Below, in pieces: positions 58,988 through 64,000 of a stretch of DNA of 64,000 bases. The first letter of the stretch is position 1. Every line of letters begins with the position of its first letter. Origin of the DNA: Planctomycetota bacterium (lineage in GTDB: Bacteria; Planctomycetota; UBA8108; SXIK01); NCBI GenBank assembly GCA_965223265.1, contig OZ244999.1:4384001-4448000 (forward strand), given 5' to 3'. The translations under genes were made by a program, and so were the position numbers. Under the pieces are notes generated by a model. That model ran no database searches. It had not been told where the DNA came from and was given only the letters and a program-made list of their open reading frames with translations.

Positions 58988-61900
58988 ATGCGAAGTCCAC
59001 GAGAGACCGTCTCTCTTCTCCACGTCAGCCGCGCCTCGCTTTGGATCGCAACGTTCGCTCTGGCGGCGGCAGTCGGCTGCAATGATTCGTCAAGCAGCGG
59101 CGGTGGCGGAGGGAGCGGTATGCCTCCCGGAACTCCTGGCACGGCGACGGTCTCCGTAGTTTCGGTGACACCGTCGGACGGCGCCAACGACGTGGCGACG
59201 AGCGCGGCGGTTCAGATCGAGTTTTCCGCCGACGTCGACGCGGCGACAGTGACCGCAGCGAACTTTCAAGTTTCGGGCTCGGTGACCGGCCTCGTCGCGG
59301 GCGCATACGCCTACGACGGAACGAACTTCGTAGCCACCTTCACACCGGACGAAGAGTTCGCGTTTGGAGAGACGATCGCGGTGGACTTGACCACCGACAT
59401 CAAAGCTGCCGACGGCGGCGCGTTCGACGGTTTCATGTCTAGCTTCACGATCGAGGCAAGCCCACCTCTGCCGGCGAATCTCGTCACCATCGAGTCAGCT
59501 TCTCCAGAGCGCGCAGCGCAGGGTGTCGACGCGAATGCTGAGGTGAATGTTCTGCTGAGCGACAGCGTTGTCCCCAGCTCCGTCAACGTCGCAACCGCGT
59601 GGCTAAACAGTAGCCTCACGGGACGCGTCGCGGCCCAGCTCGTGCTCATGGACTCGAGTCGCCGCATTCGAATGTTTCCGTCTCGGCCGTTTCGCGCCGG
59701 AGAAGTCATTACGGTACACCTTTCGGCTCTTATCGAGCCAGCCGACGCGGCTCAAGTGTTCGTCGGTGAGTCGTTTCGCTTTCGCGTCGCCTCAGCAGCT
59801 ACGGATCTGACGAATGCGCGCCGATCAGTGACGAGCGCGGTCACAACCATCAAGGAACTGCTCAGCGGCGACTTCAACCTCGACGACCACCTCGACCTCG
59901 CCTACCTGACCGACGGTGGCAGAGAGATCCACTTTCTTCTCGGCGACGGTAGTGGAGATTTCCCCGGCCGCGCTCGCGTCGGTTTCCCAATGGAGCTCCT
60001 CAGCATCGCAACAGGCGACCTTGACGTCGACGGCGATGTAGACTTCATTGTCGGCACTCTGACGGGCGTGGCGACAGCCACGAACCTCGCAGCGCAGCAG
60101 AACGTGGCGGGCGACGAAGTCCGTTTCACGCCTTCCTCGGAAGTGATCCTCGGTAGCGCGGTGCGCGGTATTGTCGCGGGCGACATCGACTTTCTGGGCG
60201 ATCTCGATTACGTACTCGACACCGACGCTGGGCTCGAAGTTCGCTTGGGCTCGCTCGCCTCGAATTCCGTTCAGGTTTTGGGCGCCAGCCGCCAGGCGGC
60301 GTCGCCACTGCGCCTTGACGACCTCAACCTCGACGGTCAAGTCGACCTGGTTTACGGCGCCGCGACCGGGACGCGCCTCGCTTACCGCCTCGGTCGGTTG
60401 CCAGACGTCAACGGCGGTCAGGGTGGCAACGACGCGACGAATCCATTCGGTCCGGAACGCTCAGTCGAAATAGGCCATGGTGTTGAAGATCTGCTCGTCG
60501 AAAACCTGGACTCAAATGCAACGCCGGAAATCCTGGTACTCACGACTGCCGGTGCAACACTCGAAGGCGGCGCACTCCGAATCCTCACGCGCAACGAAGT
60601 GGGCGGGTATGAAGTGGAGGAGCTTGTCGGTCCAGCGCCGGAGGCAGGCGGCGACGGCGACGGCCAAGGCGCCAGCCTCGACACTGGGCGCTTGGCGCTC
60701 GCCGACTTTGAGGGGGATGCGGCGCTGGATCCGATCGTCTCGAGTGCTCTGAACGAGCGCGTCGTTTGGATCCCGCATCAAAGCGGCGCGCCCCTACTCC
60801 AGCAGGGCGAAGAGCTTCTCCGTGCACCCGTCGCGCTCTCCGTCATCGCCGGCGACTTCACGGCGAACGGCGCTACAGAAATCTACGCCGCAGCTTTGAA
60901 CGAGGTTCACGGACTGATCGTCCGCGATGACGTGCCGCCGCCGGCAGATACCTTTCATCTCCGCGTCGTCGGTTCCGAAGCTCGCCGGGGTCAAGCGAGT
61001 GCCGCGGCGCTGCTACGGGCAACGAGCTCATCGCCTATGGATGGATACTCGCTCATCGTCGGCTACGATCCGGCGGTGCTCTCACCGCAGAGCGCAAGTT
61101 TCGTCGGCACGGAAACCGAATCAGCGGCAGCAGACTTCACCCGGTTTCAATTGCGGGCTGGCGACAGCGCTGTGACCGTCGAAGCGGTGGTCGACGTCTC
61201 CGCGGCGGTCCGCACCATTCCCCCCATCAACGATGCTGCCCTCTGTCGACTTCTCTTCACTGTCCAACCGGATGCGGCGCTCGGCGACTCCTCCCTGACG
61301 CTCGTGGACACGCTAGCAAGCGTACCTGCGATCTCAACGCGCTTCGTCGTGGGGAGTGATACGATCACTCCGACATTGGAAGACGGCGAGCTCACGATCG
61401 TCTCCGGCGACGAGCCAAACGGTGGTGAGAACCCGAACAAGATGCGCGCCGGCGACGCCGCGATCGCCGCGGGCACCTCGGGGCTCGTGCCAATCTTTGG
61501 CACGGCGGAGGAAAACGTCGACGCGTTCACGACGATTCTCGGCTTCGATCCCGACTTCCTCGACTTCGAAGACGTCGATCTGACCGGGTCCGCGACTGAA
61601 CCGCTCAACCCTGAGTTCACGTTCCTCCGACGCGCGCCAGAAGGTGATCACTTCACGTACACCGTCATCTTTGACTTTAACCCGCCGTTCGACCGCCAAG
61701 CGATTCCGGCCGGCGACGACTTTCTCCTTTTTAGCGCTCGCTTTGCAGTCAAACGCAGCACACCAACCGGTGCCTACCCGGTAATGTTCCTCGACGGCGT
61801 CGGCGATCCCGCGCTTTTCAACATCTTTGCGTTCGGCGGTCAATCCATTCTGGTCGACACGCAAAACGGAGTGATCGAGGTGGAAGGCACTGGAGAGACA

Positions 61901-62164
61901 TTCTTCATCCGTGGTGACGCCAACGTCGACGGCGTGGTCGACCTGGACGACTCCGGGGTGATCAACGCTTTCGTCTTCGGGGAATCGGACTCGGTTCCTT
62001 GCCGTGACGCCGTGGACGTCAACGACGACGGAGAACTCTCGGTCAGTGACGCAACATTCTTCCTGCGTTTCTTTCTGCAAGGCGACGTCGAGCCACCGGC
62101 GCCGTTCCCCGATCCAGGCATGGATCCGACGGAAGACTCGCTCGACTGCGAACAAGGAATCTAA
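58988..62164 (+). CDS. lipoprotein: 2x Big_5 Ig + FG-GAP repeats + 2 cohesin-like domains + dockerin-like domain
   Basis: Lipobox AVGC; SVTPSDGA..V...I.FS Ig domains; GDFNLD/GDLDVDGD repeats; two ~150-aa beta domains with G(Y/F)DP..L; C-terminal FIRGDAN..D.NDDG. Confidence 0.85.
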   Translation: MRSPRETVSLLHVSRASLWIATFALAAAVGCNDSSSSGGGGGSGMPPGTPGTATVSVVSVTPSDGANDVATSAAVQIEFSADVDAATVTAANFQVSGSVTGLVAGAYAYDGTNFVATFTPDEEFAFGETIAVDLTTDIKAADGGAFDGFMSSFTIEASPPLPANLVTIESASPERAAQGVDANAEVNVLLSDSVVPSSVNVATAWLNSSLTGRVAAQLVLMDSSRRIRMFPSRPFRAGEVITVHLSALIEPADAAQVFVGESFRFRVASAATDLTNARRSVTSAVTTIKELLSGDFNLDDHLDLAYLTDGGREIHFLLGDGSGDFPGRARVGFPMELLSIATGDLDVDGDVDFIVGTLTGVATATNLAAQQNVAGDEVRFTPSSEVILGSAVRGIVAGDIDFLGDLDYVLDTDAGLEVRLGSLASNSVQVLGASRQAASPLRLDDLNLDGQVDLVYGAATGTRLAYRLGRLPDVNGGQGGNDATNPFGPERSVEIGHGVEDLLVENLDSNATPEILVLTTAGATLEGGALRILTRNEVGGYEVEELVGPAPEAGGDGDGQGASLDTGRLALADFEGDAALDPIVSSALNERVVWIPHQSGAPLLQQGEELLRAPVALSVIAGDFTANGATEIYAAALNEVHGLIVRDDVPPPADTFHLRVVGSEARRGQASAAALLRATSSSPMDGYSLIVGYDPAVLSPQSASFVGTETESAAADFTRFQLRAGDSAVTVEAVVDVSAAVRTIPPINDAALCRLLFTVQPDAALGDSSLTLVDTLASVPAISTRFVVGSDTITPTLEDGELTIVSGDEPNGGENPNKMRAGDAAIAAGTSGLVPIFGTAEENVDAFTTILGFDPDFLDFEDVDLTGSATEPLNPEFTFLRRAPEGDHFTYTVIFDFNPPFDRQAIPAGDDFLLFSARFAVKRSTPTGAYPVMFLDGVGDPALFNIFAFGGQSILVDTQNGVIEVEGTGETFFIRGDANVDGVVDLDDSGVINAFVFGESDSVPCRDAVDVNDDGELSVSDATFFLRFFLQGDVEPPAPFPDPGMDPTEDSLDCEQGI

Positions 62165-62531
62165 CCGCTGCACCGAGTGCGCGGCCCTTCACATCAGCAC
62201 CCTCGTCAGCGGCGCTCGCAGAACGGAAACGATGGCCTCCTCAGCACGGTTGGCGGCGATTTCATGTGCGCCGAAACGGCTCTTGGTCCGTAGCTCGCGG
62301 GAGCCAGCCTGAGGTCTCTGCGTGCGCAGTTCGCCAGCCCGAGTCGTCCCACGCCAGCGCCGGCATCCGCTCCTCCAAGTCGACCCAAAATACATCCATA
62401 ACTCACTACGCAAAAATATCTTACAACTCCCCCTTGACGACAAAACGGCCTTACCTACGGCTGCTTCTCAGCGGCTCCAGTTCTGGAGGTGTGCGCCCTG
62501 CAGCAGCTTAGAACAATCTCAGAAAAACCCC

Positions 62532-62560
62532 TTGCGGGCCCAACCACGATCCTTTAGATT
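62532..62560 (+). promoter_or_regulatory. sigma70-like promoter
   Basis: TTGCGG-17 bp-TAGATT preceded by an A-tract; a weaker tandem candidate TTGACG lies at 62434. Confidence 0.6.
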
Positions 62561-62566
62561 TCCCTT

Positions 62567-62875
62567 CCCTCGAGCACCGCTCAAAGCGACGGGCTTGGTG
62601 GGGAAAAGAAGCTTCCGAACCCGGTCAAAGTCAGGCGGACAGCCTTCGGAAACGGAGATTGTGAGGACTCGTCGTCGAACGGTCTCCGAAGCGGCAAGAC
62701 GACTTGAACGACCGTGTTTGGACGCAGCTCGACGTCCCCGGCTGTGGGTCTGTAGTCAATTTCTAGGTTGACCCAGACGGTGATTTTGTCGACACAAACA
62801 AGCCAATCTGATTGAGATCCGTTCTCCGCCAGGTGAAGACCAGTTCATGCCGCTGGTTCTCGCCTGGCTTTTTTG
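62567..62875 (+). ncRNA. candidate structured ncRNA of unknown class (~310 nt)
   Basis: Bracketed by a promoter and a terminator, no credible ORF, several stems, downstream gene convergent. Confidence 0.55.
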
Positions 62876-62878
62876 TTT
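62828..62878 (+). terminator. rho-independent terminator
   Basis: GCCAGGTGAAGACCAG / CTGGTTCTCGCCTGGC stem followed by TTTTTTGTTT. Confidence 0.85.
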
Positions 62879-63125
62879 GAGGCGGATCTTCGACCACTCG
62901 GAGACTCCGGCATTTGCGGTAGCGCCCGCTTCAGCTAGCGGTGCCCCTCGCGGAATGCCCCGGGCTGCGTTTGTTCAGACACCCCGCTGCGTAGGTCTAC
63001 CTCGGGAGCGTGCGCGGCCGCCGCGACCCGGGCGAGATGACACGCTCGAGGGCCCCTCTTGGAGATCTGAGACGAGCAGAGCTCCCCGGCTGCCGGCGCA
63101 GCGGCCATGTGGCCCAGCCCGAGCT

Positions 63126-64000
63126 TCAGGACCCGCCTTCGGCCGGCTGCGCGGCTGGATCGCTCGTCGTCGGCGCGGCGTCGCCGCTGCTCGCGCCTTC
63201 GTCGGTGGGTGCCGCGCTGCCGTCACTCTCCCCGGCTGGGTCGATCTCTGTGCCCTCTTGCGGCTCTTCCCCATCCTCTGCGGGCTCCTCCGGCTCTTCC
63301 TCCTTCGGTAGGAAGTCTTCGAGTTTCTTATCCCAGCTGCCGAACTTGTATTTCAACATTCGATAGACGCGGTCGGCATTGGCCGCATCGGAGATGCGAA
63401 AGTAGTGTCCGTCGTCTTCACCCTTGTCGTTCTTGATCGTGTCGCCAAAGGCCACTTCGAACGACAGCAACGCGCCCTCGGGCTCGTCCTTGCGGCGATA
63501 CTGCATCGCAGCACGAAGCTGAGGCTGATCAAGACCGTAGGCCGCAGGTTCCTTCGGCTCGACGACATCCTCGACGCTGATGGTCTGCCCGGCATTGAGG
63601 ATGCCGCGCGCTACATAAGACTGACCGCTCTCAACCTCGTGGGTCTCCGTGCCGCTCGTGACGACGAAGTACTCCTCGCGCTTCGTCTCCGGTTCACTCT
63701 TCTCCCCTTCGCCATCCTTGTCCGCGCTCGAGTCGTCCTCCGGCGCGTCGACGGGGACGTCGCGGAACCGCCGTTCCACGAGAAGGTCTTGCTGCTCAGG
63801 TCGAACGACTCGGACCGACTGAATCTCCATGTCACTCGGCAGCTTGAAGACGTCTTTTTCGATGTAGTTCTTCCCTTCAGCATCGTCCCCCCACAGACTA
63901 GCATCCGAGCGCAGGTTCGTCGCCACGCGATACGTCGCATCTTCATCATCGAAACGGACGAAAACGCGTGTGTTCGTAATGCTACCGCCGGTCGCCGTCT
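63126..64000 (-). CDS. DUF4340-like domain protein, 5' end outside window
   Basis: Frame open to the window edge; FVR...TY, YGLDQP, FGD...YFR...RVY pattern; acidic tail. Confidence 0.65.
   Translation of the reverse strand, partial: TATGGSITNTRVFVRFDDEDATYRVATNLRSDASLWGDDAEGKNYIEKDVFKLPSDMEIQSVRVVRPEQQDLLVERRFRDVPVDAPEDDSSADKDGEGEKSEPETKREEYFVVTSGTETHEVESGQSYVARGILNAGQTISVEDVVEPKEPAAYGLDQPQLRAAMQYRRKDEPEGALLSFEVAFGDTIKNDKGEDDGHYFRISDAANADRVYRMLKYKFGSWDKKLEDFLPKEEEPEEPAEDGEEPQEGTEIDPAGESDGSAAPTDEGASSGDAAPTTSDPAAQPAEGGS

What the first reader, a model, noticed from the sequence alone, without database searches (positions are those of the whole stretch)
62430..62878. Standalone ~310-nt structured RNA gene candidate with its own promoter and terminator
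Seen: in a ~960-bp gap between convergent genes there is TTGCGG-N17-TAGATT (62532-62560) after an A-tract, a second weaker promoter-like site (TTGACG, 62434), and a strong intrinsic terminator (62828-62878). Local stems: CGAGC..CGC-TCAAA-GCG..GCTTG at the 5' end, CGGAGATTGT/ACGGTCTCCG (62653-62/62679-88), GGACG/CGTCC (62720-24/62733-37), GTCTG..GTCAAT/GTTGAC.CAGAC (62748-78). Nested long-range pairings are also possible: GGCTTG/CAAGCC (62592-97/62799-804), GTCAAAGTCA/TGATTTTGTC (62624-33/62781-90), ACAGCC/GGCTGT (62639-44/62740-45). Established: tmRNA tRNA-like ends, RNase P GAGGAAAGUCC and the SRP domain IV motif are absent, and no credible sense gene follows, so it is not a riboswitch leader. 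Inference: a stable multi-branched ncRNA of an unclassified or highly diverged class. Pairings were found by eye.
Basis: partly seen in the sequence, partly recalled or inferred. Interest (0 to 1): 0.85.

Follow-up and report, generated by a model that had tools for sequence, protein, structure and literature searches.

The report
Small regulatory RNA gene, histone-like target
This gap holds a real RNA gene, but it looks like a small regulatory RNA whose short conserved 3' stretch can pair with the ribosome-binding site of a lysine-rich, histone-like protein gene and with a second RNA, not a large structured RNA.

Summary
Both are conserved in 10 of 59 genomes of the same class and in 14 metagenome contigs. 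All named records are uncultured Planctomycetota.

The roughly 250-nt body is not conserved. It ranges from 24 to 392 nt, has no shared sequence, and in this window folds little better than shuffles (z -1.69).

Three parts are conserved:
- the promoter;
- a stretch AUCCGUUCUCC (62817-62827);
- the terminator hairpin, where 9 of 16 pairs change on both sides.

The complement, GGAGAACGGAU, has two conserved homes:
- It forms the Shine-Dalgarno-to-AUG stretch of a Lys/Ala-rich "MAKKK" gene in five genomes, and of a DUF1931 histone-fold gene with a Lys-rich tail in two more.
- It lies in the terminator hairpin of a second conserved RNA in nine genomes.

Best reading (about 0.6): a chaperone-independent, trans-acting sRNA that blocks translation of a histone-like protein, with a decoy partner RNA. 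It works like Chlamydia IhtA/HctA but is not a homologue.

It matches no Rfam family. No expression data were available.

The parts
62507..62527 (+). Conserved upstream motif CTTAGAACAATCTC followed by an A-tract. Possibly an UP element or a regulator site at about -60 to -40.
   Evidence: CTTAG(G/A)ACAAT or a close variant, plus the A-tract, is visible in most of the 17 aligned promoter regions. CTTAG[AG]ACAAT occurs once in the 9.18-Mb genome.
62532..62560 (+). Sigma-70-type promoter: -35 TTGCGG (62532-62537), 17-nt spacer, -10 TAGATT (62555-62560). Predicted start near 62567.
   Evidence: The hexamers recur with a 17-18-nt spacer of variable sequence in all 20 loci examined. The loci were picked with a TTGC...TAnAnT regular expression, so those letters are fixed by construction. 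The generic scan does not call this promoter. The start site is inferred, not measured.
62567..62815 (+). Variable body of the RNA, 249 nt in this window.
   Evidence: 24-392 nt in homologues with no alignable sequence. Fold z = -1.69. No ATG-initiated ORF lies in this stretch and no ORF is shared with homologues.
62816..62827 (+). Seed GAUCCGUUCUCC. The conserved core AUCCGUUCUCC is 62817-62827.
   Evidence: ATCCGTTCTC is invariant in 19 of 19 aligned 3' modules. This is partly by ascertainment, because most were found with a pattern holding these letters. The four found by plain DNA similarity and the nine found by the covariance model carry it too. It is complementary to the ribosome-binding site of the Lys-rich gene and to the partner RNA hairpin.
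62828..62878 (+). Intrinsic terminator: 16-bp stem (62828-62843 with 62853-62868), loop UUCAUGCCG (62844-62852), U-run 62869-62874.
   Evidence: Called by the scan. On 19 sequences, 95.7% of cells pair and 9 of 16 pairs change on both sides; 0 of 500 shuffles reach either value, and slid controls pair in 20-54% of cells.

Best explanation
The locus encodes a lineage-restricted, trans-acting base-pairing small RNA, here called S.

**Transcript (inferred).** A sigma-70-type promoter starts transcription near 62567. The intrinsic terminator ends it near 62874.

**Working part.** Only the last 60 nt or so matter: an exposed stretch, AUCCGUUCUCC, directly in front of the terminator hairpin. The long body is evolutionary filler.

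**Proposed mechanism (inferred).**
- The exposed stretch pairs with GGAGAACGGAU. In this genome that sequence is the Shine-Dalgarno sequence plus spacer directly before the AUG of a 110-aa Lys/Ala/Thr-rich, histone-H1-like gene (G000 C1:3867688-3868017, - strand).
- Pairing would cover the ribosome-binding site and block translation.
- A second conserved RNA, here called A (about C1:7869090-7869362, - strand), has its own TTGACA-N17-TACGAT promoter. It carries the same GCGGAGAACGGAU inside its terminator hairpin, so it could act as a decoy that titrates S, or be a second target.
- Neither Hfq nor ProQ was found, so pairing would be chaperone-independent.

**Shown versus inferred.** Shown: conservation of the promoter, seed and terminator; the complementarities; and their conservation in other genomes. 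Inferred: transcription, the ends of the RNA, repression, and the decoy role.
For: **1. The gene is under selection as an RNA gene.**
- The promoter block and the 3' block recur in the same order in related genomes.
- The seed pattern occurs in 10 of 21 genomes of the order, with 0 hits for the reversed control.
- A covariance model of the 3' module scores 75.8-91.2 bits in 8 of 59 genomes of the class and 37.7 bits in a ninth. A tenth genome (G005) has the seed with an altered hairpin (18.7 bits).
- 14 metagenome loci score 71.4-88.4 bits.
- The terminator stem covaries: 9 of 16 pairs change on both sides, 0 of 500 shuffles.
- Flanking proteins are only 30-47% identical. The seed stretch is invariant and the 84-column 3'-module alignment has a mean column identity of 74%.

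**2. The body is dispensable.** It is 24 nt in G009 and 392 nt in G001.

**3. A conserved mRNA site.**
- GGAGAACGGAT directly precedes the ATG of an MAKKK Lys-rich gene in G000, G001, G002, G014 and G016.
- It also precedes a DUF1931 histone-fold gene with a Lys-rich tail in G012. That protein matches PDB 9qt0 at E = 6.8e-15.
- G017 has GGAGGACGGATTC before the same kind of gene. Its one change keeps pairing as G-U.
- The rest of these 5' leaders is diverged.
- The homologous gene in G042, a genome without S, has GGAGAAAGGAGCC instead.

**4. A conserved partner RNA.**
- CGGAGAACGGAT sits in a terminator hairpin in G000, G001, G002, G003, G005, G007, G012 and G016, and in a hairpin without a U-run in G009.
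- The outer stems differ but still pair: GGGGCUG/CAGCCCC, GGGGCCG/CGGCCCC, GGGCUUGAAGG/CCUUCAGGCCC.
- The seed-to-A duplexes are -23.3 to -33.3 kcal/mol, z -3.6 to -5.8, with 0-2 of 200 shuffles as good.
- In G000 the match runs 18 nt.
- The promoter of A is called by the generic scan at 10 of 12 consensus positions.

**5. Co-occurrence.** S and A are both confined to the same three families. Eight genomes hold both. None of the 48 genomes outside these lineages holds either. The five genus-g5 genomes examined, which lack S and A, show no Lys-rich MAKKK gene of this kind.
Against: - **No expression data.** No RNA run holds the locus, so the transcript, its ends and its level are unknown.
- **A single genome gives no signal.** By raw duplex energy the Lys-rich gene ranks 112th of 20,527 start windows in G000. 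Five of 268,262 candidate start windows have 12 or more contiguous complementary bases, which by my own arithmetic is about the number expected by chance. The case rests on conservation.
- **Little true covariation.** The seed and the site are both invariant. The only changes are one G-U-compatible change in G017 and different lengths of flanking pairing.
- **Genomes are kin.** The co-occurrence amounts to a few evolutionary events.
- **Three S-bearing genomes show no such ribosome-binding site.** No such site was found in G005, G007 or G009. They are 80-91% complete.
- **The site in A is partly hidden.** In predicted folds of A, GGAGAA is paired within the hairpin and only about CGGAU is exposed.
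- **The seed is only moderately open.** In whole-RNA folds its mean unpaired probability is 0.37-0.84. Seven of those RNAs were cut inside the terminator by my script.
- **The 11-mer also occurs elsewhere.** It occurs in coding-like sequence, with 7 places in G000 in all. The apparent enrichment over the reversed control may reflect codon usage.
Confidence: 0.6

Rival explanations
1. S and A form an RNA-RNA pair in which A, or the S:A duplex, is the functional entity. The match to the Lys-rich gene's ribosome-binding site would be a coincidence, arising because both contain a strong SD-like GGAGAA.
For: The S:A complementarity is longer (13-18 nt) and statistically stronger than the 11-14-nt match to the ribosome-binding site. 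A is found in nine genomes, against seven for the ribosome-binding site. The match in G000 alone is not above chance.
Against: The spacer ACGGAU between SD and AUG is conserved in leaders that are otherwise diverged, and before two different kinds of basic-protein gene. It is absent from the homologue in a genome without S (G042).
Confidence: 0.15
2. The conserved 3' module is mainly the 3' UTR and terminator of the upstream large surface-protein gene. It would act in cis on that mRNA, for stability or 3'-5' UTR pairing, and not as an independent sRNA.
For: The RNA gene lies directly downstream of an orthologous large gene in 12 of 18 loci examined (C-termini seen). No other terminator was found between that gene's stop codon and the module.
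Against: A promoter with conserved hexamers and a variable spacer lies between the gene and the module in all 20 loci. In 4 metagenome loci the neighbourhood is rearranged, yet the promoter and module stay together. The upstream gene's start region (AGGAG...ATG at 58988) shows no extended complementarity to the seed.
Confidence: 0.1
3. One reading: a large, stably folded, multi-branched non-coding RNA of a new structural class, for example protein-binding or catalytic.
For: The full transcript folds with z = -3.95. Rfam 6S finds nothing in this genome at E up to 10, so at least one housekeeping RNA is unaccounted for.
Against: Body length runs from 24 to 392 nt with no shared sequence. Body fold z is -1.69. 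There is no Rfam match of any kind. A 24-nt body cannot hold a multi-branched fold.
Confidence: 0.04
4. A conserved DNA feature that makes no functional RNA: for example a regulator site plus a terminator insulating two convergent genes.
For: There is no expression evidence. The locus sits between convergent genes.
Against: A bare terminator does not explain an invariant 11-nt stretch in front of it, a semi-conserved loop, a dedicated promoter, or exact complements conserved at two other kinds of locus.
Confidence: 0.05

Closest known systems
IhtA sRNA and the hctA (histone-like Hc1) mRNA of Chlamydia
   Same: Both are small RNAs in a PVC-group bacterium predicted (here) or shown (there) to block translation initiation of a small, very basic, histone-like DNA-binding protein. 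Basis: abstracts of PMC4355289 and PMC3469542, from the search listing and the outline. In neither case is Hfq invoked: none was found here, and its absence from Chlamydia is my recollection, not a call.
   Different: There is no sequence or structure homology: cmscan against all Rfam families, which include IhtA according to a passage of PMC9029176, gave nothing at E up to 10. [quoted passage not shown] Here an 11-14-nt linear stretch next to the terminator covers the SD and spacer. The target proteins have no demonstrated homology: no Pfam or NCBIfam hit, only an Atlas lead to clusters where 17-42% of members carry PF07382 HC2.
Seed-plus-terminator sRNAs with their own promoter at the 3' end of a gene, such as DapZ and MicL of enterobacteria (recalled, not looked up)
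   Same: An own promoter close behind or inside a protein gene, a conserved seed immediately upstream of an intrinsic terminator, and a non-conserved remainder.
   Different: Those are Hfq-dependent and proteobacterial. Here neither Hfq nor ProQ was detected, and the body is unusually variable and long (up to 392 nt).
Target-mimic sponge or anti-sRNA pairs, such as AgvB or SroC against GcvB (recalled, not looked up)
   Same: A second transcript carries a copy of the mRNA target sequence and could titrate the sRNA.
   Different: Here the mimic sits in the terminator hairpin of an independently transcribed, conserved RNA. The decoy role is purely inferred.
6S RNA (Rfam RF00013)
   Same: A single-copy non-coding RNA gene in an intergenic gap. 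Rfam finds no 6S in this genome.
   Different: No match to the model. A body of 24-392 nt is incompatible with a conserved rod that has a central bubble.

Membership tests
Trans-acting base-pairing sRNA | Independent transcription unit: own promoter and intrinsic terminator, no ORF | tested here: met
   The promoter hexamers are conserved with a variable spacer in 20 of 20 loci. The terminator stem covaries. No shared ORF: the body shrinks to 24 nt, and the minus-strand ORF that starts in the loop is interrupted in one homologue, by my own reading of the sequences. Transcription itself was not observed.
Trans-acting base-pairing sRNA | Short conserved accessible seed while the rest of the RNA drifts | tested here: met
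   ATCCGTTCTC is invariant in 19 of 19 sequences (partly by ascertainment). The body is unalignable. Mean unpaired probability of the seed is 0.37-0.84.
Trans-acting base-pairing sRNA | Conserved complementary site in a target mRNA, typically at the ribosome-binding site | tested here: met
   The SD-to-AUG stretch is complementary in 7 of 10 S-bearing genomes. The match in G000 alone is not above chance.
Trans-acting base-pairing sRNA | Expression and regulatory effect on the target | not testable with these tools
   No RNA holder was listed.
Hfq- or ProQ-dependent sRNA | Presence of the chaperone gene in the genome | tested here: not met
   PF17209 (Hfq) and PF04352 (ProQ) gave 0 matches in G000 at E up to 0.01, while both rang in control genomes.
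IhtA (Rfam family) | Match to the family covariance model | tested here: not met
   cmscan of 62150-63140 against all 4227 Rfam families at E up to 10 gave only snoR113 at E = 6.
IhtA (Rfam family) | A loop of 6-7 nt that covers the AUG and not the SD | tested here: not met
   Here the complement covers the SD and spacer and ends at or just before the AUG. The IhtA features come from the abstract and section headings of PMC4355289.
6S RNA | Match to RF00013; a conserved rod of about 180 nt with a central bubble | tested here: not met
   No hit. Length varies from about 90 to 450 nt.
   Only the terminator helix is conserved. Body z = -1.69.
tmRNA / RNase P RNA / SRP RNA | Match to the family model at this locus | tested here: not met
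   All three are found elsewhere in G000, at 180.4, 252.2 and 56.2 bits. None lies in the window.

The most novel reading that the evidence does not exclude
S, A and the Lys-rich or histone-fold genes form a two-RNA switch that sets the level of histone-like nucleoid proteins in an uncultured Planctomycetota lineage. S would repress translation at the ribosome-binding site, and A, which carries a copy of that site in its terminator hairpin, would relieve the repression. Alongside Chlamydia IhtA/HctA, this would make RNA control of histone-like condensation proteins a recurring, independently evolved theme in the PVC group. It would also be the first sRNA regulon defined in Planctomycetota.
Probability: 0.3. 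Interest if true: 0.75.

Novelty: new member of a known kind. Interest (0 to 1): 0.58.

Why it matters
Regulatory RNAs are almost unknown in Planctomycetota. A 2022 review counts 8 annotated sRNA families for the whole PVC group (table passage of PMC9029176), and my three literature searches listed nothing on a planctomycete sRNA of this kind.

This locus gives a concrete, testable trio:
- a small RNA;
- a putative decoy RNA;
- ribosome-binding sites of genes for very basic, histone-like proteins, including a bacterial histone-fold (DUF1931) protein.

If confirmed, it would link RNA regulation to nucleoid proteins outside Chlamydia. It would also supply a defined seed-target pair for work in organisms without Hfq or ProQ.

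The locus also shows that a long, well-folding intergenic transcript can be mostly filler around a 60-nt working part.

Tried and rejected
**Known RNA families.**
- Rfam at gathering score gave 0 hits, both on the whole window and on six partner-RNA loci.
- Rfam in E-value mode on the gap gave noise only.
- ARAGORN found nothing.
- 6S, tmRNA, RNase P and SRP models were run on the genome.

**Expression.** No RNA holder was listed for the locus.

**Wider homologues.**
- The weak covariance-model hits in family f6 (G030, G047) lie inside a nucleoside-diphosphate-kinase-like coding sequence and were rejected. The other weak hits (24-28.5 bits) were not pursued.
- The genome-contig scan returned 66 stretches. 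Only 7 scored 37.7 bits or more, and these were the same Planctomycetota genomes already in hand. Four weak hits in Firmicutes were taken as chance terminators.

**A second S:A contact.**
- The S terminator loop (U)CAUGCC is complementary to a GGCAUG found at +36 to +71 in 6 of the 6 A RNAs that have a recognisable promoter. In the predicted folds GGCAUG is largely unpaired, lying in or beside a hairpin loop.
- The duplexes are weak (-10.8 to -14.8 kcal/mol). Against shuffles they are not convincing: z was -0.9 to -2.1 in three genomes; in G001 the best site lay elsewhere; in G016 my script found no CAUGCC loop. I keep this as a lead only.

**Single-genome target prediction.** The Lys-rich gene ranks 112th of 20,527 windows. 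Contiguous matches of 12 nt or more occur in 5 of 268,262 windows. Neither result is significant on its own.

**Compensating seed in a genome without S.** In G042 the complement of its own ribosome-binding site occurs 3 times. One is the site itself, and the other two are not followed by a terminator.

**3'-5' UTR pairing with the upstream gene.** No extended match was found.

**Naming the Lys-rich protein.**
- Pfam, NCBIfam and PDB sequence searches gave nothing.
- The exact look-up did not find it in the collection.
- The Atlas gave only a lead to HC2-type clusters, with low recognition.

**Other checks.**
- The own-genome similarity at C1:5953806 is a coding sequence and was taken as chance.
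- Three further copies of CGGAGAACGGAT in G000 lie in coding-like sequence.
- Supplementary files of papers were not opened.

Full report
**What is in the sequence.** The finding lies in a 961-bp gap between two convergent genes.
- The + strand gene ends at 62164. It encodes a 1088-aa lipoprotein-like product with Big_5 and FG-GAP domains.
- The - strand gene ends at 63126 and has a DUF4340 domain.
These are TTGCGG (62532-62537), a 17-nt spacer, TAGATT (62555-62560), an A-tract before them, TTGACG at 62434, and a 16-bp hairpin (62828-62868) followed by a T-run.
- Taken alone, these motifs are not beyond chance. The generic scan calls the terminator (one found, 1.1 expected) but not the promoter.

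**Known RNA families are excluded.**
- Rfam gives nothing at gathering score in the window. In E-value mode on the gap it gives only a noise hit at E = 6.
- ARAGORN finds nothing.
- tmRNA, RNase P RNA and SRP RNA are elsewhere in the 9.18-Mb single-contig genome, at 180.4, 252.2 and 56.2 bits.
- Rfam's 6S model finds nothing in the genome at E up to 10.

**Comparison changes the picture.**
- A DNA search of 40 relatives found two separate conserved blocks in the same order and orientation in G001, G002, G014 and G016. One is the promoter region and the other is the 3' end. Between them lies an unalignable stretch of different length.
- The pattern ATCCGTTCTCYGYCRG occurs in 10 of 21 genomes of the order, at 13 places, with no hit for the reversed control. 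Three of the 13 places are not homologues. One of these turned out to be the antisense of a partner RNA, described below.
- A covariance model of the 3' module was run on all 59 genomes of the class. It scored 75.8-91.2 bits in eight genomes and 37.7 bits in a ninth. A tenth, G005, has the seed with an altered hairpin (18.7 bits).
- Weak hits in another family lie inside an ndk-like coding sequence.
- A scan of species-representative genomes returned only these same genomes. Their titles read Planctomycetota or Planctomycetia MAGs.
- A metagenome scan added 14 loci at 71.4-88.4 bits.

**Anatomy of the family.**
- All 20 loci examined, about 17 of them distinct, have the same promoter layout: CTTAGGACAAT, an A-tract, CC-TTGCsG, a 17-18-nt spacer of variable sequence, and TAnAGT or TAGATT.
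- The hexamer letters were part of my search expression, so their invariance is by construction. The shared upstream motif and the spacing were not.
- From the -10 box to the seed, the RNA body measures 24 nt in G009, 60 in G005, 122 in G007 and 164-392 elsewhere. It is 249 nt in this window.
- In this window the body folds with z = -1.69, and 7 of 200 shuffles fold as well. The opposite strand gives z = -1.11. The -3.95 for the whole RNA is therefore mostly the terminator.
- On 19 aligned 3' modules, ATCCGTTCTC is invariant and the hairpin pairs in 95.7% of cells. Nine of 16 pairs change on both sides, and 0 of 500 shuffles reach this.
- The flanking proteins are only 30-47% identical. The upstream large gene is syntenic in 12 of 18 loci.

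**What the seed can pair with: ribosome-binding sites.**
- The complement GGAGAACGGAT was searched in five relatives. It gave 44 places, against 1 for the reversed control. This excess may partly reflect codon usage.
- The first recurrent context is the Shine-Dalgarno sequence plus spacer directly before the ATG of genes starting MAKKK.
- In G000 this is aaaGGAGAACGGATCATG before a 110-aa Lys/Ala/Thr-rich protein at C1:3868017, - strand.
- The same motif stands before Lys-rich genes in G001, G002, G014 and G016.
- In G012 it stands before a 77-aa protein with a Lys-rich tail. That protein's core matches the solved DUF1931 protein 9qt0 (E = 6.8e-15) and, weakly, the Bdellovibrio-type histone 8cmp (E = 0.068).
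- G017 has GGAGGACGGATTC before a similar gene. Its one change still pairs as G-U, and the flank extends the duplex to 13 bp.
- The leaders are otherwise diverged. The homologue in G042, which lacks S, reads GGAGAAAGGAGCC.
- No family name could be attached to the Lys-rich protein. The Atlas points to clusters in which 17-42% of members carry PF07382 (HC2), which is a lead only.

**What the seed can pair with: a partner RNA.**
- The second recurrent context is the terminator hairpin of another conserved transcript, here called A. It is present in G000, G001, G002, G003, G005, G007, G012 and G016.
- G009 has the hairpin without a U-run.
- A has a TTGACA-N17-TACGAT promoter. This was recognised in 6 of 9 loci by my expression and is called by the generic scan in G000 at 10 of 12 positions.
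- A has a variable body of 190-440 nt and no Rfam match.
- Its outer hairpin stems differ between genomes but still pair.
- The fold hides GGAGAA against a U/C-rich strand and leaves about CGGAU at the tip.
- Seed-to-A duplexes are -23.3 to -33.3 kcal/mol, with z from -3.6 to -5.8. In G000 the match is 18 nt.
- S and A share their distribution. Eight genomes hold both. G003 shows only A, and G014 and G017 show only S; these three assemblies are 80-85% complete. None of the other 48 genomes of the class holds either.
- The five genus-g5 genomes examined, which lack S and A, also show no Lys-rich MAKKK gene of this kind.

**Limits.**
- In G000 alone the ribosome-binding-site match is not special. 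It ranks 112th of 20,527 by duplex energy, and five of 268,262 start windows have 12 nt or more.
- The argument rests on conservation among kin, with almost no true covariation.
- Three S-bearing genomes show no such ribosome-binding site.
- The possible second S:A contact, loop CAUGCC with GGCAUG, is conserved in place but not significant in energy.
- There is no RNA-seq for the locus.
- Hfq and ProQ were not found.

**Verdict.**
- The locus most likely encodes a chaperone-independent, trans-acting sRNA. Its seed would occlude the ribosome-binding site of a histone-like basic protein gene, and the partner RNA would act as a decoy (confidence about 0.6).
- It works like Chlamydia IhtA on hctA (abstracts of PMC4355289 and PMC3469542). 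It is not a member of that family, because there is no model match and the pairing mode differs.
- It is a new member of a known kind.
- Literature searches listed nothing that describes it. A review counts only 8 annotated sRNA families for the whole PVC group (passage of PMC9029176).

Noticed in passing
Outside the window: G000 C1:7869090-7869362, - strand (locus L032:1474-1781): A second conserved non-coding RNA ('A'). It has a TTGACA-N17-TACGAT promoter, a GGCAUG motif 36-71 nt downstream of the predicted start, and a terminator hairpin carrying GCGGAGAACGGAU. It matches no Rfam family.
   Followed up: partly
Outside the window: G000 C1:3867688-3868017, - strand (L103:1185-1514): A 110-aa Lys/Ala/Thr-rich, histone-H1-like ORF with a U-rich leader and the ribosome-binding site GGAGAACGGATC. 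Its exact sequence is not among the called proteins of the large protein collection.
   Followed up: partly
L100 (G016 C447:6835-6881, at a contig end): At least 3.5 tandem copies of a 14-nt unit, GGAGAACGGATCCT, which contains the anti-seed. This could be a multi-site decoy or an assembly-end repeat.
   Followed up: no
L024 (G001), just after the S terminator: Three tandem copies of CCCTTTTTTTAGGGGG follow the terminator, forming a stack of extra terminator-like hairpins.
   Followed up: no
Outside the window: G000 C1:4492819, - strand: This is the best duplex-energy hit of the seed among start windows: GCGGAGAGCGGGTCATG before a 422-codon ORF, 13 bp including two G-U pairs, about 46 kb from the S gene. 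Conservation was not checked.
   Followed up: no
window 58988-62164 (+): A large lipoprotein-like protein with Big_5 and FG-GAP domains and a dockerin-like C-terminus ending ...DPTEDSLDCEQGI. It stays next to the sRNA gene in 12 of 18 loci at 30-47% identity.
   Followed up: partly
G000, whole genome: No 6S RNA by Rfam RF00013 at E up to 10, and no Hfq or ProQ by Pfam.
   Followed up: no
L057 and L061 (G027, G029): These weak covariance-model hits lie in T-rich repeats that look like the antisense of Lys-rich coding sequence. Other families of the class may therefore hold Lys-rich genes too.
   Followed up: no
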